Source: Balamuthia mandrillaris (Eukaryota). From it: DNA of 64,000 nt. A model generated the notes under the pieces. That model worked only from the letters and a program-made list of their open reading frames with translations. It did not search any database and was not told the DNA's origin. The stretch is from assembly GCA_031835245.2 (NCBI GenBank), contig JAVKOQ020000022.1:186001-250000 (forward strand), given 5' to 3'. The position numbers were made by a program, and so were the translations under genes. Shown one piece after another: positions 2,258 to 58,957 of the stretch (positions are counted from its first letter, which is position 1; each line of letters begins with the position of its first letter).

Positions 2258-3746
2258 CTAACTGTTCCATAGTTTCGAGGAAGCACACTCTCTTCGCGAT
2301 TGGATTCTTCGTATCAAAGACTCTGATCACGTGCCCATCGTTTTGGTCGGCAACAAAGTCGATTTGGAGGATCAGCGAGAGGTCAGTCGCACCGAAGGAT
2401 TGGACTTGGCCAAGTCCTTTGGCATTCCCTTCTTCGAGTCATCTGCAAAGATGCGCATTAACATCGAAGAGGCAGTGCACGAGCTCATTCGCATTACTCC
2501 GAGAGAGAGCCCAGAATACAAAGTCGTTGTTTGCGGCGCCGGTGGTGTTGGTATGTCTTCTTCTTTGTCATATTCTCCTTTGTCTTGTTCTTGTTCTTGT
2601 TTTCTTCTTGTTCTTCTTCTTCTTCTTCTTCTTCTTCTTCTTCTTCTTCTTCTTCTTCTTCTTCTTCTGGTTGGTTATCATCTATACTAACAAACCTTGC
2701 GACTGCATTACCATTATAATAACAGGAAAATCTGCATTCACGGTTCAATTTGTTCAAGGCGTATTTGTGGAACAATATGGTATTCTCACTCACTCTCTTG
2801 TTCTCTCTTTCCTCTCTTGCCTCCTCTCTTGCTTATTTTTTAAAAAACCACAGACCCAACTATTGAAGACTCCTATAGGTACTTCTCTCGTTCTCTGAGC
2901 AAGCTCGTGCACAATTATAAACATTTTTATTAACACATTAAAATTCGCGAACACAGGAAGCAAATAGTGGTGAGCGGGTTGCCTGTGGCAGGTGGAGGCA
3001 TTGGAGCTCGTGCGAAGCCTCAGCCCAAGAAAAAGGGATTCTTTGGAATGATGAAAGGGCTGATGGGCTCCTCTTCGAATTTAGCATCTTCACCACCCTC
3101 CGCTTCTTCTGTGGAGGAACCTAAAAAACAAGAGGAGGAGGAAGAGAGCGGAGAAAAGATTCCAATGGCAGATCCAAACGTTCTTTTGTTGAGCTTAGGC
3201 ACTTTGGCGAATGTCAATGATATCATGACCGGCGAAGCATTCTTTTGCGAAAAATGTGGAGCAGCCTTCTCTCTCTACAGTCATCTAGAGCAACGCCAAC
3301 GAAAGGAAGGAGAGAATGTCGACGAGGACAAACAAGAAGATGAAGAGAATGAAGCAACTCAATGGCATTGTGAGTTTTGTGGAAAGTTGAACGAAGAAGT
3401 CGGACTGGAGGAGGAAGAGATGCCACGTGCACAGAGCGTAGACTACATGCTAGCGCCTCCTTCTTTGGACAAAGGAGAAGATGGCCTGGTCGTTATTTGT
3501 GTGGATATCTCTGGTTCCATGTGTGTCAGGTATATCCTTCCCATCTGCTTTTGTTCTTTTTTGTTTTGTTCTTATCTTACCATCTCTTGTTTTATTGAAG
3601 CACGGAGGTGCCTGCTTTACAAGGAGAATGGAAGAACATGCGCAACAAAGCTGCTTCGCGCGAGCGTCGTAACAGTCTCAAAGAAGGGATGCCTAAGAAC
3701 GATCTGTTTGACACTGGAGGAGCCAGCCAATATCTCCCTGGTACCT

Positions 3747-3796
<50 letters not shown>

Positions 3797-5399
3797 TCTC
3801 TCCTCTCTCTTCTCTGTTCTTTGCTTTTCTACTTCTTATTGATTTGCCAAACATAAATAAAGGTGAAAAACGAAATACCTCCTACATTTCAAGACTGGAA
3901 TGCATGCAAGAAGCAGTCAAGACTCACCTCCAACGCTTGCTGGTTCAAAGCAAAGATAAGAAGGTGGTTCTCATCACGTTTAACAACGACGTTACCATCA
4001 TCGGCGATGGTCGAAGCAAACAATTCCAGGTGGTGACGGGAGATAAGTTGAAAGATTGGGAGACGTTGTGGGGCATCGGCGCCGGCATCAATGTTGATAA
4101 GGACATTGCTGCTATTGCAGAGAGTTGCGAGCCTTTAACAAAGACTGTGGAGGCATTGCAAGAAACTGGAGCCACTGCTTTGGGTATTATTTATTTTTTA
4201 TTATTATTGTTTTGCTTTTGTTAGTTTCTCACTCTATGTCAAACCAAAGGACCAGCGCTGTTGATAGCCGTGGGATTGGCCAGCCAGAAGCCTCGCTCGG
4301 AAGTGATCATATGCACAGACGGTTTAAGCAACGTTGGTGTAGGCTCCTTAGAAGGTTTTATTTGTTTCTCTTTCTCTCTGGCATAGTCTTTCTGTAGTTC
4401 ATCTAAACACAAAAACAAAAACCAAAACAAAACAAACAGAAACGGAGAATATGAGCAGGAGCAAAGACGAAGATGACGATGACGAAGAACAGGGTGGATT
4501 CTATTCTAGAGTTGGTCGCATTGCTAGAAAGCATGAGACCACCATTAATGTGATCAGCATTGAAGGAAGCGACTGTGCAATGGATAGATTGGGCGAAAGT
4601 GCTTCTATCACTGCTGGCACTGTTAACATTGTGGTACGATTCTAAAACAGAAATGAAGGAGAGGAAAAAAAAAAGAGAGGAAGAACATAAGCGTCATTCT
4701 AAGCTTTTGTCTTTAAACAAAAACCAACAGAATCCATTGGAACTCGTTCGACAGCTTCGGTCCATCTCTCAGAATCCAGTCATCGCAACGAACGTGAGCG
4801 TGAAGCTTCTTCTTGGCAAACAATTACTATGGAAGGAGGAGAACGTTCTACAAAAAGAAAAGAACAACAGTTCCACCACTGCCAAGAAGAAAAAGAAACA
4901 AAGAGAGAATGGCAACGAAGGGGCAGCTGTGAAGATAGGCATTGCCGGTGTGGATGAGGATGATAAAGAAGGCGACTCTAAGAAAAAGAAGAAAGATAAG
5001 AAGAAAGTCGCTTCTTCGGAGAGCAAAAAAGATGCAACCTACTTCTTGTCCTGCGATGTCGGAAACGTCACCAGCGAAACCGATCTCACCTTTGACTTCG
5101 CTTGCAAAGACGAATACAAAACCTCTTCAAGGAAGAAAGACAAGACGTCTTCCAAGAAGGTATCAGATGAAGGAGAGGAGGAAGCGATTCCTTTCCAAGC
5201 CCAAATACGATTTACGACTTTGGATGGAATGCAATGCCTGAGAATCGTAACGTCAAAGTTTGCCTCCACTGCCGATAGGGAAGTCACCGAAGAAGGGCTT
5301 GATGTTGCTGTGGTAGCTCTTCATGCCTTGCATCGCGCGGCAGAGATTGCTCAGGCTGGACATTATTTGGATGCCAGGAAGCTGTTATTTGGGGTTTGA

Positions 5400-40057: not shown

Positions 40058-40807
40058 TCACGTTGGGCTTACGGGAGCCCACAGGTTCCTCCTGACCGTT
40101 TGCGGGTCGTCAAAGTCTCTGTCCCAGTATCCGCAGCCCATGGTGCCTGAAAATCCAAAGAAGTCAAAGACAAAGGCAAAGAACACCAGGAACCATGCTT
40201 GAGATGGCCACCAATGGTCTATTCCAGGAACCAGCTCGTCGTCGAACTCGCTGGCAAAGAGTGAGATGAAACCAACGGAGGCAATAAACGAAAACACACT
40301 GTTCTCGAAAAGTAAGCCAAGAGTGAGTGGAAGATAATAAAAGCATTGAGAGAGCAAGAAACAAAAAAACGAGGGCTATCATTGGGAAGGAATGGAAAGG
40401 ATAACTACCCACCATGCAAACGCGATAAACACAAGAGAAATCTTTCGGAAGCGCGCACGATGGGCAACGTCCTTGGGCCATGCAATGCCAAAGATCAACA
40501 AGACTCCACCTGTAACATTGGCCACCAATGCCATTACGGAAAAGGCCAGGGCCATCTTGCCTGTTCCTGCCAATTGGGTGGATTGAACGGACTCGTGGGT
40601 GTAGTAATAGTTTTCCTCATGGTGTTCGATGGTGTAGCCTTTCCATCCAAAGTAGAACTCATCAAGGAAAGCGCTAACAAGCACCTCGCGGGACCCTTCA
40701 AACCAGCCCTTGTAATCCGAGGCCACGTCGACAGAGTTGAAAGCCGTAACACAGATCACCATGAACAGAGGATACAATAGCAACACCCTGCCCCTCGCCA
40801 AAGCCAT
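40058..40807 (-). CDS. Four-TM membrane protein (claudin/amastin-like topology); 2 exons
   Basis: Four hydrophobic segments with a large first loop, across ORFs 40379..40855 and 40058..40357. Confidence 0.6.
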
Positions 40808-40953
40808 GTTGTCCCAGTTCTTCTTCGCTGGCGGGATACCGTCTCGTTCGCCCAAGGGTCATGGTCTTTCGTTGGCTGGTAAGTGTCGACATCAACGGAG
40901 AGAGTGCTCTCTCCTCTCCTCTCCTTTACCCAGCCTCGTGGAAGCGAGGACAG

Positions 40954-41961
40954 ATGGAGGCGTTACCTGCGGAGGTGGTGTGCCTGGTGTTGGGCTGGCT
41001 GCCCAAGGACATGGTGGGCGTGGCCGCTAGAACCTGTAGGCGCTGGTTCGCTTGTTGTACCCCCGAGGCAAGGCGCAAACTGTACGCCCGCAGGGCTTGC
41101 AGTTCCGCCACTTTTCTTCGTTGGGCGCTCGCTCAAGGGTACCCCCTGCACCACGCCAACACCTGCGCAGCCGCCGCTGGGCAGGGCCGGTTGGAAGTGC
41201 TGCGGTGGGCAAGGGCACAAGGCTGCCCCTGGGACAGCAGGACGTGCCACCAGGCAGCACGCAACGGCCATTTGGCAGTGCTACAGTGGGCCTTTGCGCA
41301 GGGCCTTCACCCCTTTCATGAACGGCGGGTGTGCAGGGCTGCGGCCAAGCACGGTCACTTGGAGGTGTTGCAGTGGGCCCGTGGGGTTGGGTACGAATGG
41401 GATCAACTGGTCTGCTTCTATGCTGCGCTCCACGGCCGTTTGGACGTGCTGCGCTGGGCGCATGCGCACGGTTGCCCCTGGGATGCCACCACTTGCGCAG
41501 CCGCCGCCGAGAACGGCCACTTGCCTGTGTTGCAGTGGGCTCGTTCTGCGGGTTGTCCTTGGGACGAGAGGACCTCATACGGCGCAGCACGGCAAGGACA
41601 TCTGGGGGTGCTGCAGTGGGCCAGAGAGAACGGTTGTGAGTGGGAGGAGTGGACCTGCGCCTTGGCTGCCGAACACGGTCATCTGGAGGTGCTGCGGTGG
41701 GCAAGGGAGAACGGTTGTCCTTGGGACGAGAGGACGAGCTACCAGGCCGCCAAGAATGGGCATTTGGAGTTGCTCAAGTGGGCGCATCAGCACGGCTGTA
41801 CTTGGGATGCACGCACTTGGCGCGCTGCACAGCAGTGGCCGGAGATAAGGCAATATGCTCTGCAGCATGGATGCCCTCAGGAAGAGGGGGAGGAGGAAGA
41901 TACCGTTTGGTCTCGTTGTTCTTATTCTGCATGGAAGAGAGGAAAAGAAAATATTCTCTGA
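40954..41961 (+). CDS. Intronless F-box-like + ankyrin-repeat protein of the GHLEVLQWARENGCPWD type
   Basis: MEALPAEVVCLVLGWLP...TCRRW (F-box); about 9 repeats of AAxxGHLxVLxWAxxxGCxWD. Confidence 0.9.
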   Translation: MEALPAEVVCLVLGWLPKDMVGVAARTCRRWFACCTPEARRKLYARRACSSATFLRWALAQGYPLHHANTCAAAAGQGRLEVLRWARAQGCPWDSRTCHQAARNGHLAVLQWAFAQGLHPFHERRVCRAAAKHGHLEVLQWARGVGYEWDQLVCFYAALHGRLDVLRWAHAHGCPWDATTCAAAAENGHLPVLQWARSAGCPWDERTSYGAARQGHLGVLQWARENGCEWEEWTCALAAEHGHLEVLRWARENGCPWDERTSYQAAKNGHLELLKWAHQHGCTWDARTWRAAQQWPEIRQYALQHGCPQEEGEEEDTVWSRCSYSAWKRGKENIL

Positions 41962-41977
41962 GTAATACAATGCCTTT

Positions 41978-42655
41978 TTAGACAAGCACCAGGGAAGGCC
42001 TGTTGGGATCTCTGGCCACCATAACAGAGGCCCTTCCAGCATACTCGTGCTTCTCCCAGAGGTCCTTCGTGGTGCGCACCAGGCAAGGGTGCGCCCTCAA
42101 ACTATCCAACAGACACCAAGCGCCGTCGCTGTCCTCCAATCTCTGAGCAGCAAACGCGTGGGCTTTACCGCTCTCGATGTGGGCCAGGAAGATGGAACTA
42201 ATAGAGGGCTCTTTCTCCAAAGCCTCCACGAATGTCTCCGTTGTTTGCTTCTTGTCCTCCGCAAACTTGCTTCGAGCGTAACGATGGTACAAACGATGAG
42301 GCACGTAGACGAGGTGCGGCTTTCCGGTATTCTCGTCTGTTCTCATCTGGAACTGCAACAGGAACAAGCATTGACTAGGAGAGAGTTCCTTGAGCTCCGC
42401 TTTGGTGATCATGTTGAGCAAGTCTGTGGGAGAGGTCTGCTTGAAAATCTCAAAGTAGCCAAAGAGATCCGGATTGGAAGCCAGATCGGAGCGGTCATCT
42501 TCCATCTTCTTTTCATCGGCGGGCACGTTCTCTGCTCCGCCATAAAAGTCGATAGCACAGTTTTCGTAGATTAGTTCCTTTATTTTCCCTGTTGCTTTCT
42601 GCAGGCGTTTTTGTGTTAAAATATATTTTTTTTTGGTTAAGGTAGGTAGTTCTTG

Positions 42656-42702
<47 letters not shown>

Positions 42703-45438
42703 AATGCATAACAAGAAATAACGTACGTTAACAAGCGCGCTATACTGTAGCAAGAAGGAGGGGTCGTTCACGAGAGGTTTCTGGAAATACATGTTGAGGG
42801 CATGGCGGAAGCAAGTATCGGAACCTGCGTCTTGATGCTCATGATGGATGCTAGAAGGGATTGTAGGCGTGGATATGATACGTTGCATGATCTCCACCTC
42901 CTTCTGCAGAGTTTCATCTCCCAGCTCATCGATTTGCTCCTCGAAATGATCGCTGAATGCCTTTTTTTTTTGTTCCAACTTAAGTTTTTCCATACTAAAA
43001 GACGAGCAATAAAAATGAAAGATACCTTAAGGAGGGAGCGGTAATGAGGAGAAACTACTAAAGGAGTAGTACTGTAGTCAACTGTTTGGCCATCAGCCTC
43101 TTTGGTAGGCAATAGCAAGCCAGTTCCTTTGGTAATAGTTGGTTTGGTCCGAGCATCTATTTCAAACAGGGAATTTTGTTAGCAAATAATAGCTTACGGC
43201 AAAGCGGAGAGCAAGTACCGCCAGTTCTCTCGTCGTCAGACCAATGTTTGATAAGCGTAACAAAGCGAGAGAGAAGTATGGCCTTTCTAAGGCCAGAGCA
43301 TCCATAATAGCCTTTCGACTCTCCATTCTTCAATTCCTCAAGTGGAAGCTGTACTCTGGTGTTATCCTCTGCATAATACAAATGAATAAACAAGCCACAG
43401 GCAAGAAGTAAAGAAGAGAAGGAGAGAGTTACCATAGGTCTTATTGGAACGATCTGTGTAGCTAATGTCGAGGTTAATAAAGGAGGAAGAGATATCCTCA
43501 GAGGTTTGGCGAAGCTTCAACAAAATGATGCCTCCCTTGTTCTGCCCGCTTTCGTCTTTCTTCGACGGGAAAAGAGAAGCCACTGTCGATAATAAGCCAA
43601 CGTTAAGAACTTGTTTTCAGAAGAGAAAAAAGGACTGTAGGCAGACTACCATTCATCAGCTCATCCTTGCCATTAACACTTTGAGGAGAGCCATAAACCT
43701 GAAGATAAGAGCAGCATGAAAATAGATTAAGTACACCTGGAAAAAATAAAGATATCATAATGGACAATAAACAAGCAGAAGCAGCAGCAGCAGCAGCAGC
43801 AGAAGAAGAAGAAGAAGAAGAACAAGAACAAGAAGAAGAACAAGAAGAAGAAGAAGAAGAAGAAGAAGAAGAAGACGAACAGCAAGAAGCAGAAGCAGAA
43901 GCAGAAGCATAAGAACAAGAAAGAACAGCATCAACGCACGTTTTCAATCTCCCATCCCTCTGCCTTGAATGAAAGCTTCAAGTCGAAGAGCAGAGGAGAA
44001 ACCATAAGGTCGAACTCATCATCCAACTTTGCGGTGAATTCTTTGCCGGATTTGACGGTATAGTAGTTAGAGCCTTTGACCTTCATGAGAAACTCCACTA
44101 GTGTTGGGTCGAAGTCAGAGCCAATTCCCAAGCACGAGGTAAATATGCCGTGAGGGACATTTTCCTTAACGAGATTGGCAAATCCCTCAGGGTGATGAGT
44201 GTCTGTTCGTTTTGATATGGACAGGCATTAGCAAAGAGAGAGAGAAGAGAGAGAAGAGAGAGAGCAGAGAAATAGGGAAGAATGAACAAGAGTGATAGAT
44301 ACCTGCGTTGGGCCGGTCGTCCGTCAAGAAGATGATCCTGTTCTCACTCTCGTCAATTTTCAACTTGCCCAGTTGCTGCAGCTCATTCGTGGCGGCCCTG
44401 TACCCCACCTCCATACTTGTTCCTCCTCTAGGGTGAACGTCTAGTAGTTGGCGTTTCAGCTTGTCCATGTCGATGTCCTTGAACTTTGTGAGAGGGAGGA
44501 GGTGCTCCGCTTCGGTATCGAACAACACGATACCCACGCGGTCGTTCTCCTTGAGGTGGCCAAGCAATGAGATGATGGCCGTCTTGGCCACTTCTAACTT
44601 GCTCAGCCCTCCCTCTCCAAATGGACAGCTCATCGAACCAGAGATATCCTTTTGGTAGAAAAGTTAAGAAAGAAAGAAAGCAAGAAACGCAAGAAAGAAA
44701 GAAACAACAAGAATGAAAGATTTACCAGAACAAGAACCAAGTTGAGAGGAAGACGCTGAAAACCGTCCTCCTCAATGGTGGAGTTAAGGCCAACGCTCAT
44801 AAAGTACTCTGGCTTTCCTGAGATAGGATCTGTCGGCACCACACAACAAAGGTCGGTCAATAACAGATTCGCAAAGAAGCGTCGAAGCACAGTTAACAGA
44901 ACAAGTATCACTCACCAGGAGCGCAAGCAAAGGAGTAGGAGGGATAGAAAAGGGCATTTCTCTCTCTCGCTTTAGCTTCCAGCTCGTCAATGTCTCCTGT
45001 GTCAAAGAAGTACTCGTAGAAGAGGCCTTCGTAGCTGAGGGAGGCAGCCTTTGGCAACAGATCTCTTTCAATGTTTTGACGAAAGTTGATCCCGTCTTTT
45101 GCTCCTCCCTTTGTTTTTTTCAAAAAAAGATTAAGCAAGAGCAAAGTTAAAAGCACGAAGAACATTGAGCGAAGAAGAAGACTTACCACAGCGAAACAAA
45201 AGGTGGAAGGACCACCACGAAGTCGCAAAACCATATGCAGAGTACTCTCCTTCTGGATGTTGTAGTCCGCCAGGGTTCTCCCCACTTCCAGCTGCCTGCC
45301 GGCAAAGATGAGGCGTTGCTGGTCGGGAGGGATGCCCTCCTTGTCCTGTATCTTTTGCATCACCTCGGAGAGCTCGTCCATGGACTCTACCTCAATGGTG
45401 ATGGTCTTTCCCGTGAGGGTCTTGACGTAGATTTGCAT
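41978..45438 (-). CDS. Ubiquitin - VWA - Josephin-like deubiquitinase fusion protein; multi-exon
   Basis: Ubiquitin 45438-45211 (62/76 identical to canonical); VWA ([48 protein letters not shown]); in-frame splices into [22 protein letters not shown]...HAFA...WCLLDSL. Confidence 0.85.
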
Positions 45439-45610: not shown

Positions 45611-45783
45611 AAAGACCCTCACGCCGTTCGAGGAAAGAAGAGCAAAGACCATCACGCCGTTCGATGAACGCACGTAAAGACCATCAGGCCGTCCTATAAA
45701 GGGGGCACAAAGACCATCAGGCCGTCCGATAAAGGGGGCACAAAGACCATCAGGCCGTTCGATGAAGGGGCACAAAGACCATC
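45611..45783. repeat. 32-33-bp minisatellite, 5 full units plus a partial
   Basis: Units begin AAAGACC at 45611, 45644, 45676, 45709, 45742 and 45774; consensus AAAGACCATCAGGCCGTYCGATRAAGGGGGCAC. Confidence 0.9.
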
Positions 45784-46370
45784 GACGCTTGGTATTAAGT
45801 TGCCTCGCGGTTCCAAACGCCACGACATGCTGGTGGATAGGATCGCCGGTTGGGGCGTCTGTCCCGTCCACTCTGTTTGCTGGAGCCCTTTGGTTTACCA
45901 CCGCTCGCTGTAGTTTATTTTAGAAAAGAAAACCGCCAGCCCTTCCAGCAGGGCCTTCTCCGACCTCCTCTCCAGTGACCTCTCCGACTTCTCCAACGAG
46001 GTGCTCTGACTTCGTCATGGCTCACAGCCCCAGCCAGTACGGCCCTCAAGCACCCCGAGCAGCGGCTCTACTCCAGGAGCACGTCGCCAGGTGATGAGCA
46101 AGAAGGAGCTGTTGCAGGTGGTCGGCGGACGCTAAACCCCCCTACAAGGAGCAGAACCTGGCTGGTGGAGCTGCAGGGACGAGCATCCTTGTCCGTTTCG
46201 TCGGAGCCTCCAAGCATGGACATACAAACCACAGGGAATGGCGGAGGGAGGGCCAAGACTGAAATTCAAAGGCGAGGGCAGAGAGAAGGAAGCCCGCCCG
46301 AGGAGATTTTAGTGAGTTCACGTTGTTGCTGAGCGGGGCCACCAAGCACACAAGCCAAAGGTGCAACAAC

Positions 46371-50121: not shown

Positions 50122-53100
50122 TTAATAAGACCGAGTGAGAAAAGTGGCTCGCTTACTTTTGGAGTCTGTGCCTTCTTCGGCCGGCCCCGCCGTCTTGCCT
50201 GACCTGCACGAGGTACCGCATGCGAACCTGCGATACGTCGTAGACGATGTACTCGTTGTGCGCGAGCGAGTAGTAGTTGCCCCACTGCTTCTCCTGCGGA
50301 GTGGCCGTATCTGGCACACGGTACTGAATGATTTTGCCCGCTGGCAACGTCGTTCCGTTGTCCAGAATGATATCCTCCTTCGGATCCGGTCCTTCTCTTC
50401 CCAATCCTTTTGTTTGTGTGTTTGTTGGTTATTGAACATAAAAAGAAGCAAAAGCTTGACAACAACGGGATATATTACCTTTGGTGCTGTCGGTGCCAGG
50501 AGCACGACTGTCCTCAAAGCCGCCCGTTCTCATCTCGTGGACCCTCCCCAGGGCCACCTCGCACAGCAACAAAAGGGCGGGCGATTTGCCGCCATCGAAA
50601 TTGCGGCAGTAGCCAAAGCTCTTGGCGAACATGTCGGCAAAGTACACGCCCTTGCCGAAAGCGTACCCGCTGACGGGTGCCTCAGGAGGGGCGATGCGCA
50701 GGCCTTGCTGTAGGATGCCAATGAAGTTGGAGAGGGAGGAGCCGTGCCAGAGGAGCTTGCGGTTGGGGTTGTCGCGCCAGGGGGCGAAGCGCTCCGCTTC
50801 TCCTTTGCGTTGCAGGTCGTAGATGCATTGCACCTATTTAAAATTGGTCAACAAAATAAAGGAGAAAAGAGAAGCGGAAGAGAGAGTAGCAACTAACCTC
50901 AAGGCCGCTAGAGGTGGCACCACGAGAGCCATGCTTAATGTAACGGAACAAAGTGGCAAACTCAGCCGAGTCCTTGGAGATAGGCTCCAATTGAACGCCC
51001 AAGGCATGGTAGCAGTAGTCCAACGGGTTCATTTCCTTCATGCGAAGACGAGCACCCAACAGTATTTTGCTGGCTATCTCCAACTCGCCCAATGATTGCA
51101 GCATTTCCAACTGAGACATGAAAAGAGGTTGAGAGAAAAGAAGAGAAGAGAAGAGACCGATGAAGAGAACGATGAAGAGAAGAGCACGAGGAGAAAAGAA
51201 CGATGAAGAGGAAGATTAGACAGAAAGAGGATATGAAATGAAAAGAGAGAAAAAGAAAGCGAACCTTTTTGCCAACTTTCTGTTCGGTGTCAATGCTGTC
51301 CATTTTCTCAGCAGCAAAGTTAGTATGCGGGATGAGCTCGTAGAACTTGTTGCTCAGCTCTGCAATGTTCTGCAAGTACTCCATCAGCTCCGCCACTTCC
51401 AACTTGCCGCTGGAGCGCTCCTCCTCTTTCTTCTTTATGATCTCATAGATTTCTTGCAGGATGTCTTTGGCCTCCTCCAACGTCTTCTTCTTCAGCTGAC
51501 CGAAAGGTAAGAGGTTGGTGTCCACTCCGGATTGCTTCATGGCTTGCGTCAACATTGTGACGTTGGCAATGGACTTGATAGTGGCTTGCAGGGGCAGAGC
51601 GAGTTGGGAGGGAGCGTAGACTTTATTGTTGTGGAATTTGCCTTTGGCTCGTTGTTCCTTAAGAAAAGTGGCTTCGCTAAAGTTTTGGTCGTAGATCGAA
51701 TCGGGATAGTCCGGCAATGCTGTGAAGGGCTTCAAGAAGTGCTTCACATTGCGAAGAGTTCGATCGATGGGAACAAGCCAGTATCTGTTTTAAGAGTTGT
51801 TAGATTCGTTCTTTTTTTCTTTTTGAAACAAGAAAGAAACAAAATGGAGGGAACCAACTTCTTGGGCATCTTCTCAAAGTCATCTCGGTTTTCCCATAAG
51901 TTACCAGTCTTGGCCTTGAAGATCTTTTCAAATTCAGCGCAGGCGTCTGCTGCGGATGGGAATGGAGTTTGTTGCATTTGTCCCGATTCGCCAATGCGTC
52001 CCCATCTGTTTTTTTTGAGAGTTCGTAAGAAGACAGACAGAACGGATGAGGAAGAAAACGTACTTATTCCAGAGAATGAAGATGTCTTTGACCAAGTTGT
52101 GAATGACTTGCATCTTGTAGAATGCGTTTTGGCCGTAGAGCCCTTTGGCCACGTCAACTTTGGTGAGGATAACGTCATAGATGACTTCTTTGCCGGTGAC
52201 TCCCTCGTTCTTGATGTAAACTTTGCTGTTGCGCCAAAGCTCAAACTCGTGATCGACAACTGGTGTTTGGCGTTGAAGAGCCTTTCAAAAAGAGCAAAAA
52301 AGTAATAAGTAAAGTAAACAATAATGATGGTAGTGTTGAAGTGGAGAAAGAACCTGTTCAGAAGCTTTAGACTTGAGCTTCTCACGTTCTTGAAGAGTAA
52401 GTTTTGTGCCATCGTCAGAGACAACATCCATGTCGGTTGTTAAATCCTTCTCCTTCCCTTTGTCCTGCTTTGCGCTGGCAGCTGTACTTTTGCCTTTTCC
52501 TCGTTTGGCTTTTGGTTCTTCTTCTTCTTCTTCCTCATCTTCCTCATCTTCCTCTTTCTCTTTTTCCTTAGCTTTCTCCTGTTCTTGCTTTACCTTTTGT
52601 TTCTCGTTGTCGATTGTGAGAAGCCTGTTAACTAGCGTCTCTGCGTCCTGTTCAAAGTTGACTTTGGCTTTCGCCCATTGAGTCACCGGCAGGAAGGAGT
52701 CTTGGCGAACAGGCTTGGGCCGCTCGTCCCCAAAGCCGGTCTTAACTTTGCACTTATCGACCAGCGCTCGCAACATCTTACCCGAACTTTGCAGAGCAGC
52801 ATAGTATGCGGGTGTGTTGCCTTAAATTTTTGGTTAGTCCGGAGTGAGAAATAGAAAAAAAAAGGGAAGAAAAGCACAGAGAGCAGCAAACATAGTACAA
52901 GGAAGGAGGAAAAGAAAGATAGTTTTACCAAAGTTATCAGCAATATCAGGATTAGCACCAGCCTTAACCAAATCAAGGAGTAGGCCTGTGTTCTCATAAG
53001 AGCCCCATTCCAAAGGCCTGACCACATGGTGAATGACGGTCTTGCCCTCCTTGTCTTGCACATTAAGACCCAGTAAATCGGAAGACGCATCCAATTGAGA

Positions 53101-55593
53101 GCTGGATAATGTCCGAACCACTTTGCCCAGGAACGAGCGAACCGGAGAAGCACCGCTAGCAACAGCAGATCCACTTGCTGAGGATTGCTTCCTTTGAGCG
53201 AGTTGCAGAAGGTAGTCCACCATTTCTTTGTCGTTGCGTTGCACGCAGTACATGAATGCAGTGAAGCCTTTGCCATCCTGACCGGCAAGAGAGGCACCAT
53301 GATTGATCAATTCTTGGATTAGGCGGAAGTCCCTCTTTCGGACGGCGTGAATGAGTAACGTGGTGTGAGCTTGTGCTTCTCTCTCTTCCCTGCGGCGAGC
53401 CGCTTCGTCCTTTTGTTTCTTGTCAGTGGCGCCTTGTTTTTCTTTTCCCTTTCCTTTGGTGGAAGTAGACGAAGAAGCAGATGCGGTGCCTTTCGTTTTA
53501 TCGTGTTTAGACTCGTTTCTAGGGAGATAATCTTTTTCCACGTACGGAGCATTGGGATCCGCGTTGTTAGCCAACAACAACACTGCCAGTCGTAACGAAG
53601 CGGACTGCACATAACTGGAATGTGACGAATATGACGAGGAATCTCCACCTAAACGGAAAGGAGGAGGCGTGGGTTGCGTGCCATGTCCGCGCAAAGCCAT
53701 GATGAGCGGGGTGTTATTGTCCTCATCCAAAGCGCAAGTGATGGATTCTTTCTTTTCCTTCGTCTCAGCCGCTCTCAACAGATGAGTCGCAAGGTCGATG
53801 TTGTGATTGCTACAGGCGTAATGCAAAGGATAACGTCCGTGGGCATCCTTGAGATTAGGATCCACGCCGCGTTGTAACAGTTTGTCCAGTAGACGGCTTG
53901 CCCATTGATCCAATGTGCTACAGTGGATGGCAATGGAGTGGATGAGGTTGCGATGAGTTTCCGGGTTGCACTGTTGAACAATCTTGTTGTCTCGCATCTT
54001 GGCCAGCAGGGTGAGGCATAGCTGAAGTTTGCCGGCTTTGATAGCGTCGTTGAGGGCTTCGAGTTTGTCGAAGCCAGCGTCTAACATCATATAGGCTACT
54101 CCTTGCCATTCTAAAAACGAGGAAATGAGTTAATAAGTATTCAAGGAAGAGAGGGCGGGAAGCAGAGAAAACGAGAGAGCAAGAGAGTGAGAAAATGAGG
54201 GAGCGCTAGGGAGAGAAAGAAGGGGACGGAGAGAGGAAAGAGATAGAGATAGCGAGAAAGATACCAGCAACAACAGCTTTGTAGAACATAGATGTAACAG
54301 TTCTGGAGGTTTCTACTTCGATTTGTTGCCACCACGTGCCTTCGTCTTGGTCACCAACAGCTGAAACGATGGACATGGCATCCCCTTGGCCTTGAGTACC
54401 TTCTTCTTCTTCTTCGTCGTCGTCATCTTCCTCATCTTCAGAGTGATCCTCTTCCTCACTGTCATCAGACTCTTCACTCTCATGTTCTACGGGGTTATCT
54501 GCAACAATAAAAAGCAAGCAAAAATGAACAACTTTGAATTAAGAAGAGAACACGATAATTCCTGAACGCGTACCATAAGCGCTCTTTTGTTTCGCGAGCT
54601 TAGCCATGGTTGCTTCGTGCAGTTCTCTTAATTCCTGGAGAGATTTGGAGGTCACGTCGACGTCCTTTGGTACCAACAACTTCTCCCTGTTTACATAATG
54701 AATGGGATGCTTGACATTGGCCTCTTTTTGGATAAGCATAATGCTGTAATCCGGATGAGAGCTTGCCATTGCCACCGATAACGGTGTGTTGTTATCCCTT
54801 TTTTTTTTTAAAAAAATGTATTAGGCCAAGACAACGAAGAAGCATTGCAATGAATAAAGAAGCAAACAAACAATACAAACCTATCACAACGTTCCAAATT
54901 GGCTCCTCTCTGCAAGAGATAGAGAGAGCAAGTAGTGGCTCCTCTCTGAGAGGCATAATGAAGCGGAGACCGACCGTGCTTGTCCGTGTGATCAATATCT
55001 ACTCCTTCTAGGGAACAAAGGCTGGAAATGGTTTCGATGGGGTCGATGCGTGACGTGTTGTTGTGGTTATCGGTAAACTTGATGAAGGCATAGTGCATGG
55101 GCGTGCGGCCCAGTTTGTCTGCTTTGTTGGGATTGACTCCAGCTTCCAACAAAAGCTCCTCCATGTCGAAGGAGGCATCAGCACCACCTATTCACGAGAA
55201 TACACCAAACGATTTAAACATAACAAGGAAAAGACTTATAAAACGAAAAACGATGCAAGGAACGGGAATAGAGAAGGAGGAAAAGATTACCAGTTGAAGC
55301 GTCGACAGCATAATGGAGGGAATTGCGCTCGTATTTATCAACAGCGTTGACATCGGCTCCTTTTTGGATGAGCAACGTAGCCGTTGCGATGAGCTTCTTG
55401 TTGACAGCATGGTGAAGGGCTGTCATTTGAGCCTTGTCTTTGGCGTTCACCTCCACTCCAAGGTCGATCAGCCGCTCCACCAGTTTAAAGTTGGCAGAGT
55501 CCTTTTTGATTACCGCATCCAATGCCCTCTCTCCATTCTTATCCGCAACATTCAAGTCCACAACCTTAATTAATAGCTCAATCTTGTATCGCA

Positions 55594-55631
<38 letters not shown>

Positions 55632-56540
55632 AAAAAAATGTGTTAGTAAATGCAACCACAAAAAGAAATGGCAAACTAACCATAGCATGAGCTCTAGAGT
55701 GAAGGGCCATAAGGAAGGGTGTAACAGCAGAATCTTCCTCTTCGTCCGTTCGTGCGTTGACATCAGCTCCTAAGTCTATCAACTTTTTGGCTAGTTTCGA
55801 AGTTGAGCTGTTCTTGGCAAGGAAGTGCAACGCAGTATACTTTGCAACGCCGGCAGCATAGTTGGGAGACTTGGAAAGGTCTTCTTCTGGCTTTTCTTCT
55901 TCATCGGCTTCCTCGGGAGCGGATTCTGAGCCCTCTTCCTCTCCTTCACCTCCTTCTTCTTCGGCTCCTTCAGCTTGCTTGAGCGCTTCCTCCTTTTGTT
56001 TTTTCTTTTGTTGTAATAACTTCTCTTGCTTTGCTTTTTGTTTTTCTTCCCATTCCACCTTCTTGCGAAGGCGTTGAACTGGGAAGGACACGTCCAAGCC
56101 AGCCACTTTGATGAACTCCACCAAAAATTGTTTGAACTCCTCCCGGATGTCTTGCTCGATCTTGTTTGTCTGCTGGATGGTAAGAGAGATTGTGGAAGTT
56201 GGTTCATAGCCTAATATCTTCTTGATAATCCTGTAAATTTTGGTAGGGGGGACGGAAGAGACAGAGGGAGAAGAGTTATAAGTCGGTGAATTGTTCCATA
56301 CGGAACGACCGGCTTTGCCTCTCCCACGGCCAAAGGTGTTGTTATTTCCTCCGGCGCTAATTCGTTTTTGAATAATGTTGGAGAAGTCGGGTCGATTCCA
56401 TGAGGCATACATTTGCACGTAACGAAGGAAAGGGGTAAAGCCTTGGTCATCCACTTTGTTGGCCATTTGTTTGAACTGCGGATTTTCTTAACGACAAAGA
56501 TAGAGAATAAGTTAATGGAAAGGGTTAACGAAGAGAGAAG

Positions 56541-56571
<31 letters not shown>

Positions 56572-58957
56572 ACAAACTTGCGATAAGGCGGAATATAGGA
56601 AGGATGTCACAATTCATGATATGGGGCGTGAGTTTATGAAGAATGTTGGCGCCATCCGAAGAAACTATCTCTTCCGGCTTTGCTCCGTTTTCCATCAAAA
56701 AGAAAATGAGCGGCTCGTTGAAACGGGCAACAGCAAAGTTCAAAGGAGAGTCCTTTTGCTCGAACGTGACAGCATTAACGTTGGCACCATTATCCACCAA
56801 CAATTTGGCAATCTTAACAACGGCTTTTGATGTGTCTTGGTCATCGTTGCTGGAGATGATGTGAAGTGGCGTTTCACCGTTGACATCAGCGATAGTGACG
56901 TCGGCTTCTTTCTTGGTGATGAGGTACTTGAGTTGTTGATAAGTGCCCTTTTGTAAGGTGGAACACAGTTGGGCGACGAGAGTGCGGCCTTCTTCATTGG
57001 TTATGTTGACATCCACTCCCTTGGTAATGGAGATAAGTTTGATGCAAGAAGAAGAAGAAAAAAAAGGCGAGAGAGAAACCTCTTGATTTAGCAACAGATC
57101 AGCAATGTCGAGATGTCCTTTCATGACAGATATGGCTAACGGCGTCGTTTTCCTGTACAAAAAAAAAAAAATATAAGGTAAACATATGCACGAAAAGGAC
57201 ATGAGACAAAGAAAGGAATGAAAACAAACCATGCGTTAAGAGCATTAGGATTTGCACCCACTGAGACAAGGTACTTCACACATGCTCTCCAACCGAAGGC
57301 GGCAGCATAATGAATGGCAGAGTTGTCAGAAGAGTCACAGGCATTAGGATCAGAACCCATGTGCACCAAATAGCTCAACACTTTCAGGTTGCCGTTCTTT
57401 GCGGCCAGAATAGCCGCTGTGCGACCATACTTGTCAACCTTGGTGATGTCGCATTTATTTTCCACCAAAACTAAGTATGTTAAAGCGTTTTGTTGTATTA
57501 ATAGATGAGCAAAGGGTGGTTAAATAAAGTGTTATGTCACTACCTTTAACGCATTCAAGGTGACCTTTCATAGCAGCCAAAGCAAGAGGAGTGCATCTGG
57601 TTCTATCCGGAATGTTGATGTTGGCTCCGTTGTCAATAAGCGCTTGCACAGCTAAAAGAACAATGAATATTTAAAAGCTTTGAGAAAAATACAATTGATA
57701 AAAGTGATGATGAAAGACCTACTTTCAGGGTGGTTTCCAAGAACGGCATAGTGCAAAGCAGCATTTCCAAACTTGTCCTTGTTGTCAACTAGTGACTTGG
57801 TATCAGACTTTCCAATCAAAAGCGGAATGTTGTGAGCTCGTCCAGCCTAAGGTGGTTTTACGAGTGAGATAAAAGGTTTGAAAGAAACAAAAAAAAAATA
57901 AAAAATGTGAACCTTGGCAGCAAGCATTAAAGGAAGAGTTTTTTTGGCGTCGAAGCAAGCAACATCCACTTGATGTTCTTCTAACAAAAGCTTAAGAGGA
58001 CCATCTCCACAACAAGCAGCAGCATAGTGAACAAGTTGTCTGCGCCTTTCATCCTCTAGCTTTGGTTCCTGCTTCATCTCAAGCAGTTGCTTCAAGTATC
58101 TGAATTGTGAAAGAATGAGAGCATTGCTGAGTAAACGAAAGAGAGAGGGAGAGAGAGGGAGGGAGAGAGAGAGAGAGAGAGAATGCTTACTTGGGATTCG
58201 GGTTGATGCAAGCCATGTGCAATGGAGCAACACCAAAGTTAGATTGGTTCGGCTTCTTAGTTACTGAGATAGCTCTATTTGTCATACGTATGTCTACATT
58301 AACCAAACTGATAACGTAAAAAGACAATAATCGGAAAGCACGAACCGAAAAGTGTCTAACTCCTCCGTTCCGTCATATTTCAACACTTGAGAGTGAAGAA
58401 AGTTAAAGCCATAACCTTCATCCTTGACCAGCCTTTCAACCACGTAAGACGCAACTTCCCTGTGGCCGAGCTCCACCGCTTTAGCCACGTGATCATACAT
58501 GAACCTCGTGATTTCAGGGTTCCAGAGCGTAAGCTCGTCGAGAAACTTGGTGGAAACGGGCGTTTGCATCAGGAAGTCATAGGGCAGCGAAAAGTAGTGA
58601 GTGGAGTAGGCGGTGGCAAGATCAGCAGCGAAGGCATCGTTGCCTTCTCGGTTGCCTCTACCGGAGGTCAAAGCTCTAACTCGATGACCCTAGAAGCCAC
58701 AAAGAAATTGTTAAGAAGAAGGGTAAGATAACAAGCAGACGAGGCAAACAAAAGGTGCACATACATAAGTGTAGTTACTGTAACCTCCAGTATTGCGTTT
58801 TGCCAAAGTTGGAACGGTAGGGGAAGTTCTCTGTACTTTCTCTTGGTAAGGCTTCTCCTGATCTTCTTTAAACAGCTTCAAAGCTATTTCGCAACAAATA
58901 ATATTGAAAGAAAAGAGGGTGAGAAGAAAGAGGAGACTAAGAAGAGTGAAAGAATGA

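What the first reader, a model, noticed from the sequence alone, without database searches (positions are those of the whole stretch)
41978..45438. One gene fuses ubiquitin, a prokaryote-type VWA domain and a Josephin-like deubiquitinase
Seen: the ORF fragments splice into one frame. Introns 43218-43157, 43025-42961 and 42726-42599 carry the VWA C-terminal tail ([38 protein letters not shown]) with no stop into [22 protein letters not shown]...GKAHAFA...WCLLDSL. Established: Josephin DUBs (ataxin-3, JOSD1/2) begin HExQ...CxxHxLNN and end H...W..L(N/D)S. Candidate triad: Cys 42811-42813, His 42158-42160, Asp 42104-42106. Cys-His spacing is about 175 aa versus about 105 in ataxin-3, implying an insertion. 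Inference: a self-contained module carrying its own ubiquitin tag, a MIDAS adaptor and an eraser, which might autoprocess or be auto-inhibited by its own ubiquitin. I do not know of a described protein with this architecture.
Basis: partly seen in the sequence, partly recalled or inferred. Interest (0 to 1): 0.9.

Follow-up and report, generated by a model that had tools for sequence, protein, structure and literature searches.

The report
Amoeba ubiquitin–VWA–Josephin-like protease fusion
This amoeba gene is spliced into one 830-residue protein joining a ubiquitin, a prokaryote-type metal-binding VWA adaptor and a Josephin-like protease domain of an unannotated protist family that lacks the residue ordinary deubiquitinases use to read ubiquitin's tail, so it likely cuts ubiquitin, or another substrate, in an unusual way.

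Summary
Eleven exons splice into one 830-aa reading frame; all 10 introns appear as joints in transcript-like contigs, and the protein equals an NCBI record named only 'Ubiquitin [Balamuthia mandrillaris]'. Parts: ubiquitin (K48R, Gly76-Pro77), a VWA module 39-44% identical to archaeal/CPR proteins with intact MIDAS, and a C-terminal domain Pfam misses. That domain defines a family of 52 representatives from Amoebozoa (three phyla), a foraminiferan and metagenomes; Cys, His and Asp are conserved, and its profile and predicted fold match Josephins best. The full three-part architecture recurs in Soliformovum and in one metagenomic eukaryote. It is an apparently active Josephin-fold protease, but a conventional 'eraser' is doubtful. 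Best guess (0.35): it cuts ubiquitin-type tails before Gly-Gly, as clippases do. Rivals: non-ubiquitin substrate (0.3), conventional DUB (0.27). No activity was tested.

The parts
41978..45438 (-). whole gene, 11 exons, 830 aa; exons 45438-45187, 45108-44916, 44829-44726, 44648-44303, 44202-43940, 43698-43650, 43582-43433, 43368-43219, 43156-43026, 42960-42727, 42598-41978
45211..45438 (-). ubiquitin domain, aa 1-76; Leu8/Ile44/His68/Val70 patch and LRLRGG kept; Lys48 is Arg, Lys27 is Met; Lys6, 11, 29, 33, 63 kept
   Evidence: Pfam PF00240 E 3.5e-27; residues listed
45208..45210 (-). Pro77 directly after Gly-Gly; expected to block ordinary deubiquitinases
   Evidence: PMC9703124 passages; also Pro in L003/L004, Glu in P0138
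42877..45201 (-). prokaryote-type VWA module, aa 80-574 (VWA core about aa 178-354, beta-sandwich, helical tail), spread over exons 1-10
   Evidence: 39-44% identity over 99-100% of the region to the 119 other listed hits; 115 of those 119 alignments end at query 570-579; fold like ArnB and 4fx5
44319..44648 (-). MIDAS residues Asp184, Ser186, Ser188, Thr260, Asp293
   Evidence: invariant in 43 of 43 aligned VWA modules
41981..42849 (-). Josephin-like papain-fold domain, aa 584-830 (exons 10 and 11)
42832..42834 (-). Gln589, predicted oxyanion-hole residue
   Evidence: Gln in 26 of 27; aligns with the ataxin-3 HEKQ motif
42811..42813 (-). Cys596, predicted nucleophile
   Evidence: Cys in 28 of 28
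42272..42301 (-). family-specific motif PHRxYHRYA (aa 724-732) within the ~70-residue insertion between Cys and His
   Evidence: His729 40 of 40, Arg730 39 of 40
42158..42160 (-). His771, predicted catalytic His
   Evidence: His in 42 of 42
42155..42157 (-). Ala772 at the aromatic 'gatekeeper' position (Trp120 in ataxin-3, Phe188 in PaJOS)
   Evidence: Ala 41, Ser 1, aromatic 0 of 42; alignments
42104..42106 (-). Asp789, predicted third catalytic residue
   Evidence: Asp in 39 of 42

Best explanation
The gene makes one protein whose C-terminal Josephin-like domain is predicted to be an active cysteine protease that likely acts on ubiquitin-type tails but, lacking the Gly-Gly gatekeeper, would most likely cut before the Gly-Gly (after Arg74, 'clipping') rather than after it. 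Shown: one spliced frame, the three domains, conserved triad, missing gatekeeper, Pro77, K48R. Inferred: with Ala after His the pocket next to the active site is open, as in general papain-like enzymes, and can seat Leu73 with Arg74 at the cut site. The fused ubiquitin resists ordinary deubiquitinases (Pro77) and cannot be extended at Lys48, so it stays on as a handle for ubiquitin-binding proteins or as the enzyme's own built-in substrate or inhibitor; a cut after Arg74 would not be hindered by Pro77. The VWA module, a surface-anchored protein in prokaryotes, has lost its anchor and is inferred to serve as a metal-dependent (MIDAS) adaptor that brings the protease to a partner.
For: Triad under strong selection across the family (Cys 28/28, His 42/42, Asp 39/42, Gln 26/27). 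Family profile against 177,635 PDB sequences gives 6 hits at E<=10, all Josephins. Model of family member P0121 (47% identical, pLDDT 95.8): VIA-align top rows PaJOS Z 8.6 (rmsd 5.0, 166 aligned), clippase BpJOS 8.6 (3.7, 147), clippase PcJOS 8.4 (3.8, 143), Mug105 8.1, ATXN3L 7.9, JOSD2 7.9, all tied; Foldseek top hit ATXN3L. Gatekeeper aromatic in 0 of 42; mutating it to Ala opens other DUBs to larger P2 residues and killed JOSD2 (PMC7391069 passages and Discussion). The Josephin fold is known to switch to clipping through changes in the helices after the Cys (bioRxiv 2024.07.24.604956, parts 1-5 of 8 read), the region that carries the insertion here. [quoted passage not shown] LRLRGG is intact in all three lineages with the full fusion, even where the ubiquitin is much diverged.
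Against: The characterised Josephin clippases mostly keep the aromatic residue and need it (PcJOS F285A inactive; BpJOS Trp167 contacts Leu73), so His-Ala departs from them too. Eukaryotic Josephins tested lack clippase activity. Structural Z-scores near 8 are in the range the tool calls common, and non-ubiquitin papain folds (C39, staphopain, AvrPphB) follow within 1 Z. Many family members seem to lack both ubiquitin and VWA (Rhizamoeba, Pelomyxa, Reticulomyxa records), so the ubiquitin is not needed by the family. Pro77 is not universal (Glu in Soliformovum). From recall, not from a call: some natural ubiquitin-like domains keep Gly-Gly-Pro without being cut, so a kept tail does not prove cleavage. 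Uncontrolled clipping is toxic to cells, which would demand tight control of an endogenous enzyme.
Confidence: 0.35

Rival explanations
1. The domain is an active Josephin-derived cysteine enzyme whose substrate is not ubiquitin (a peptide with a bulky P2 residue, or an amide/ester bond as for deamidases and acyltransferases); the VWA recruits the substrate and the ubiquitin is only an integral handle for the proteasome or p97.
For: No gatekeeper, the feature reported as enriched 477-fold in DUB and UbL-protease families (PMC7391069). The ubiquitin-binding hairpin region is replaced by a ~70-residue insertion with its own invariant His-Arg motif. Ile44 patch intact, Pro77 and K48R fit a retained handle. 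Stand-alone members exist. Non-DUB papain folds score within 1 Z of the Josephins.
Against: All 6 sequence-profile hits in the PDB are Josephins and five of the six top fold rows are Josephins, the sixth a ZUFSP-family DUB. The fused ubiquitin keeps LRLRGG in three lineages.
Confidence: 0.3
2. It is a conventional deubiquitinase or UbL protease that cuts after Gly76 using another way to read Gly75.
For: Josephin motifs at both ends of the domain; 14 of 51 family representatives hit Pfam Josephin at E<=0.5 and one (P0145) passes its cut-off, 26.7 against 26 bits. The ZUFSP family are DUBs without the aromatic motif (PMC7391069 figure legend) and its member Mug105 is tied at the top of the fold search. 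In Soliformovum the junction is Gly-Gly-Glu, which is cleavable in principle.
Against: Gatekeeper aromatic in 0 of 42; JOSD2 W126A lost all probe reactivity. Gly76-Pro77 in this protein and in L003/L004 argues against processing of its own ubiquitin at Gly76. The Balamuthia protein has no Pfam Josephin hit at E<=10.
Confidence: 0.27
3. The domain is a catalytically silent scaffold that binds ubiquitin or the VWA partner.
For: The W-to-A change alone inactivated JOSD2.
Against: Cys, His, Asp and Gln are the most conserved positions over a family at 30-50% identity.
Confidence: 0.05

Closest known systems
Eukaryotic Josephin/MJD deubiquitinases (ataxin-3, ATXN3L, JOSD1/2; Pfam PF02099, MEROPS C86)
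   Same: ExQ...C and H...L(D/N)S motifs in the same order, Cys-His-Asp triad as in JOSD2, papain-type fold.
   Different: Ala instead of Trp after the catalytic His; Cys-His spacing about 170 instead of 101-105; no UIM tail; fused behind ubiquitin and a VWA module; below the Pfam threshold.
Bacterial Josephin-like DUBs and ubiquitin C-terminal clippases (BpJOS, PcJOS, PaJOS; bioRxiv 2024.07.24.604956)
   Same: Best fold matches (Z 8.4-8.6); Asp as third residue; variable helices after the Cys.
   Different: Those are bacterial effectors, mostly with Phe/Trp after His; this family is in intron-bearing protist genes, and no relative was found in prokaryotic genomes, plasmids or viral contigs by the scans run.
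ZUFSP/ZUP1-Mug105 deubiquitinases
   Same: Papain-fold DUBs that lack the aromatic gatekeeper; Mug105 Z 8.1.
   Different: No sequence-profile match; different motifs and domain context.
Archaeal/CPR VWA proteins ('Ca-activated chloride channel family'), structurally ArnB-like
   Same: Whole module aa 80-574 at 39-44% identity, intact MIDAS.
   Different: The 7 prokaryotic N-termini inspected carry hydrophobic signal or membrane segments where this protein has ubiquitin, and 116 of 119 end within 40 residues of the module.
Non-cleavable ubiquitin fusions (Ub-Pro, UFD substrates)
   Same: Gly76-Pro77 junction; Lys29 kept.
   Different: Natural, conserved, and with Lys48 lost, which should blunt the K29/K48 branching that the review describes as needed for efficient degradation.

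Membership tests
Josephin/MJD deubiquitinases | Cys-His-Asn/Asp triad with upstream Gln | tested here: met
   Cys 28/28, His 42/42, Asp 39/42, Gln 26/27; aligned to ataxin-3
Josephin/MJD deubiquitinases | Josephin-type papain fold | tested here: met
   Model of family member P0121: five of six top rows are Josephins, Z 7.9-8.6, rmsd 3.7-5.0, 133-166 aligned; margin over other papain folds under 1 Z; Foldseek top hit 3o65
Josephin/MJD deubiquitinases | Pfam PF02099 score above the curated cut-off | tested here: not met
   No hit for P0001 at E<=10; 1 of 51 relatives passes, 14 of 51 hit weakly
Josephin/MJD deubiquitinases | Aromatic gatekeeper directly after the catalytic His | tested here: not met
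   Ala 41, Ser 1, aromatic 0 of 42; feature defined in PMC7391069
Josephin/MJD deubiquitinases | Helical hairpin that binds the Ile44 patch of ubiquitin | tested here: inconclusive
   Region is ~70 residues longer and of different sequence; no contact information obtained
Josephin/MJD deubiquitinases | Cleavage after Gly76 of ubiquitin | not testable with these tools
   needs enzyme assay
Ubiquitin C-terminal clippases (bacterial Josephin-like) | Josephin fold with Cys-His-Asp | tested here: met
Ubiquitin C-terminal clippases (bacterial Josephin-like) | Aromatic residue after His contacting Leu73 (BpJOS Trp167, PcJOS Phe285) | tested here: not met
   Ala here; paper says many, not all, clippases keep it; its alignment is in a supplement I could not see
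Ubiquitin C-terminal clippases (bacterial Josephin-like) | Cleavage after Arg74 | not testable with these tools
   needs Ub(1-73)-PA probe or intact mass
Ubiquitin | Beta-grasp sequence with Ile44 patch and LRLRGG | tested here: met
Ubiquitin | Seven lysines including Lys48; cleavable Gly76-X junction | tested here: not met
   Arg48, Met27, Pro77
MIDAS-bearing VWA domain | DxSxS...T...D | tested here: met
   Asp184, Ser186, Ser188, Thr260, Asp293; 43 of 43

The most novel reading that the evidence does not exclude
The first eukaryote-encoded ubiquitin clippase family: a protist Josephin offshoot that removes ubiquitin irreversibly by cutting after Arg74, carried with its own DUB-resistant, Lys48-less ubiquitin that only it can cut off and with a MIDAS adaptor taken from prokaryotic surface proteins.
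Probability: 0.3. Interest if true: 0.92.

Novelty: new variant of a known kind. Interest (0 to 1): 0.7.

Why it matters
Josephins are a small family, and the review passages read (PMC13720258) list clipping only for bacterial Josephins and one viral protease. A Pfam-invisible Josephin-like family spread over Amoebozoa, with a conserved triad but no gatekeeper, is either a eukaryotic clippase, a Josephin that has left ubiquitin for another substrate, or a DUB that breaks the gatekeeper rule. Each outcome changes how DUBs are predicted from sequence, and a single expression-and-probe experiment decides between them. The protein is also an enzyme of a free-living amoeba that infects people, currently annotated merely as 'Ubiquitin'.

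Tried and rejected
No whole genome was held, so paralogs and a conventional Josephin in the same genome could not be checked; tblastn found no second copy in the window. No holder on record as RNA was listed by the run search; runs X7 and X9 showed no listed splice joint and X4, X5 behaved as DNA. Single exons 10 and 11 gave no Pfam Josephin hit, exon 11 no PDB hit. ESM Atlas gave Josephin as first feature hit at 0.78 and TM 0.50/0.63 by structure, both under its bars, so leads only; for P0138 only VWA clusters at 0.78-0.82. The search for longer proteins with alignment A2 found nothing and missed even P0001 and P0138, so it is uninformative. No relatives in viral contigs (0 of 65 pattern matches), prokaryotic genomes (0 of 178, single-protein patterns) or plasmids; these scans are weak. 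The complex prediction of the protease domain with the protein's own ubiquitin gave no verdict (score 0.00, alignment not used). The full-length model (pLDDT 86, pTM 0.75) has a poorly modelled ubiquitin because of the mixed alignment and gives no coordinates, so cis docking was not assessed. The VWA tree (63 rows: every second of the 119 prokaryote-type hits plus three eukaryotic rows; quick search, long branches) shows no donor and is not used to claim transfer. Rejected: two neighbouring genes merged by a predictor (spliced contigs cross the junction); chance motifs (family conservation). Literature searches that found no description of this architecture or family: (listings only) and a term look-up in PMC10673212; most subscription journals are outside the library. 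Earlier findings of this scan: none.

Full report
Gene model. The minus strand from 45438 to 41978 splices through ten GT-AG introns into 830 codons with no internal stop. Laying public runs on the region showed joints at all 10 of 10 predicted introns in contigs of X1 and of X2, and none in X4. One X2 contig of 2016 nt covers 41943 to 44647 across eight joints, so the VWA core and the C-terminal domain lie on one assembled transcript; one X1 contig of 964 nt joins the ubiquitin exon to the VWA core. X3 shows four of the joints, and raw reads of RNA run X8 show two, including ubiquitin/VWA. Limits: X1-X3 are guessed to be RNA, contigs are assemblies, and no record spans the whole gene. The model is letter for letter P0001, an NCBI protein named 'Ubiquitin [Balamuthia mandrillaris]'; that record may come from this same assembly and is not independent.

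Ubiquitin. Residues 1-76 match PF00240. Leu8, Ile44, His68, Val70, Arg42, Arg72 and LRLRGG are kept; Lys48 is Arg, Lys27 is Met, and residue 77 is Pro. A review (PMC9703124, passages) states that Ub-Pro fusions are not cleaved and are degraded through Lys29 with Lys48 branching. So this ubiquitin is expected to stay attached, and loss of Lys48 may blunt that degradation (inference).

VWA module. Residues 80-575 found 2055 proteins among 7997 candidates scored; the 119 listed besides P0001 are 39-44% identical over 99-100% of the region, and those with names are archaeal (DPANN, methanogen), CPR or Chloroflexota. 115 of 119 alignments end at query 570-579 and 116 of 119 proteins end within 40 residues of that point; the 7 N-termini I printed carry hydrophobic signal or membrane segments. 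Ubiquitin thus sits where the anchor was and the protease begins where the module ends. MIDAS is intact in 43 of 43 aligned modules. The full-length model matches ArnB and 4fx5 over aa 136-579 (Z 20.7, rmsd 6.5 and 5.4, 342 and 351 aligned). The tree did not identify a donor.

C-terminal domain. Pfam gives P0001 no Josephin hit. HMMER over 1.84 billion representatives gave 52 proteins at E<=0.001, itself included. Of 30 that I looked up, named ones come from Soliformovum, Mastigella, Paradermamoeba, Pelomyxa, Rhizamoeba and the foraminiferan Reticulomyxa; the rest are unnamed. Taxonomy look-ups place Balamuthia in Discosea, Soliformovum in Evosea and Rhizamoeba in Tubulinea. Over the 52, many of them fragments, the positions covered show Cys 28/28, His 42/42, Asp 39/42, Gln 26/27. 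A profile from 27 rows hit 6 of 177,635 PDB sequences at E<=10: three ataxin-3 constructs (E about 0.0013), ATXN3L, PaJOS and JOSD2. I folded P0121 (47% identical to the Balamuthia domain) as a stand-in: pLDDT 95.8, pTM 0.92. Foldseek ranks ATXN3L first, with low TM-scores of 0.37-0.41 for Josephins; VIA-align ranks PaJOS, BpJOS, PcJOS, Mug105, ATXN3L and JOSD2 at Z 8.6-7.9, tied, with other papain folds just below. In the viral library the top row is an Orpheovirus Josephin. Cys-His spacing has a median of 171 in 20 members (regular expression, a few may be mis-picked) against 105 in ataxin-3; the extra sequence lies after the Cys helix, where Josephins bind ubiquitin (PMC7337049 passages), and carries a motif with invariant His729 (40/40).

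Architecture elsewhere. P0138 from Soliformovum irregulare has ubiquitin-like, VWA and protease domains in the same order, 36% identical over 847 columns; its tail is LRLRGG followed by Glu and position 48 is Gly. Metagenomic loci L003 and L004 (96.6% alike, so one lineage together with L005 and L007) hold intron-bearing genes with all three parts; their ubiquitin has Arg48, no Lys27 and Gly-Gly-Pro. Several of their tblastn breakpoints and introns appear, by eye only, to coincide with Balamuthia introns; this was not computed. Of 27 representatives holding the Cys motif, 10 carry the VWA-module tail just upstream (10 of the 14 with 20 or more upstream residues); 13 have under 20 upstream residues and may be stand-alone or truncated. 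P0172 is VWA plus protease with an uncertain 5' end.

The point against a plain deubiquitinase. The residue after the catalytic His aligns with Trp120 of ataxin-3 and Phe188 of PaJOS but is Ala in 41 and Ser in 1 of 42 members. PMC7391069 (passages and Discussion) defines this aromatic residue as the gatekeeper that contacts Gly75, finds it enriched 477-fold in DUB and UbL-protease families, and reports that JOSD2 W126A lost all reactivity while the same change in other classes admitted a larger residue; it also notes that ZUFSP DUBs lack the motif. The family is therefore Josephin-like in fold and triad but fails one defining feature, and I do not file it as a member.

Mechanism. The clippase preprint (bioRxiv 2024.07.24.604956; parts 1-5 of 8 of the main text read, supplements not available, and its alignment of gatekeeper residues is in a supplement) shows that the Josephin fold can cut after Arg74, that the helices after the Cys set the mode, and that a gatekeeper should not be needed for clipping, although PcJOS needs its Phe285. 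Lbpro clips with Leu in a general papain-type pocket (PMC5877979 passages). An open pocket, a rebuilt helical region, a kept LRLRGG and a Pro77 that blocks only the conventional cut fit together as clipping, which I put at 0.35. Nothing here shows ubiquitin binding or cleavage. A non-ubiquitin substrate (0.3) and a conventional DUB without gatekeeper (0.27) are close rivals; an inactive scaffold is unlikely (0.05). That some natural ubiquitin-like domains keep Gly-Gly-Pro uncut is recalled, not from a call, and weakens the argument from the tail.

Novelty. Searches (listings seen) and passages of PMC5381560, PMC13720258, PMC10673212 and PMC7344625 (nothing relevant) gave no description of this family or architecture; the library lacks most subscription papers. 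Verdict: real, conserved, unannotated; a new variant of the Josephin kind. Interest 0.7.

Noticed in passing
window 40765-41961 (+): Apparently intronless, GC-rich F-box plus ankyrin-repeat ORF (Pfam F-box-like 4.9e-06, Ank_4 4e-23; 81-bp repeat units) that converges on the studied gene, the two stop codons 17 bases apart; resembles the F-box/ankyrin genes of amoebal giant viruses (recalled).
   Followed up: partly
window 45643-45788: Tandem repeat of a 33-bp unit, 4.3 copies, 86% matches, about 200 bases upstream of the start codon, without depth in the transcript-like runs; possibly a promoter element.
   Followed up: partly
P0133 and P0149 (Reticulomyxa): Family members with a long hydrophobic insertion between the catalytic His and Asp strands, suggesting membrane-anchored versions of the protease.
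   Followed up: no
P0145, P0160, P0168: Shorter subgroup (Cys-His about 137-140) that scores best on Pfam Josephin; a possible bridge between this family and true Josephins.
   Followed up: partly
L001:336-338: A stop codon interrupts an otherwise continuous VWA-tail plus protease frame and reads as Gln under table 6; sequencing error, pseudogene or alternative code.
   Followed up: no
window 2934-5396 (+): Exons of what looks like a second, unrelated VWA-type gene (ORF list).
   Followed up: no
window 50965-57235 (-): Large ankyrin-rich gene whose C-terminal exons look PARP-like by eye (ORF list).
   Followed up: no
P0139, P0170: Members with other fusions: an extra ~85-residue N-terminal region (P0139) and a ~200-residue C-terminal region (P0170), neither with a Pfam hit above cut-off.
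   Followed up: no
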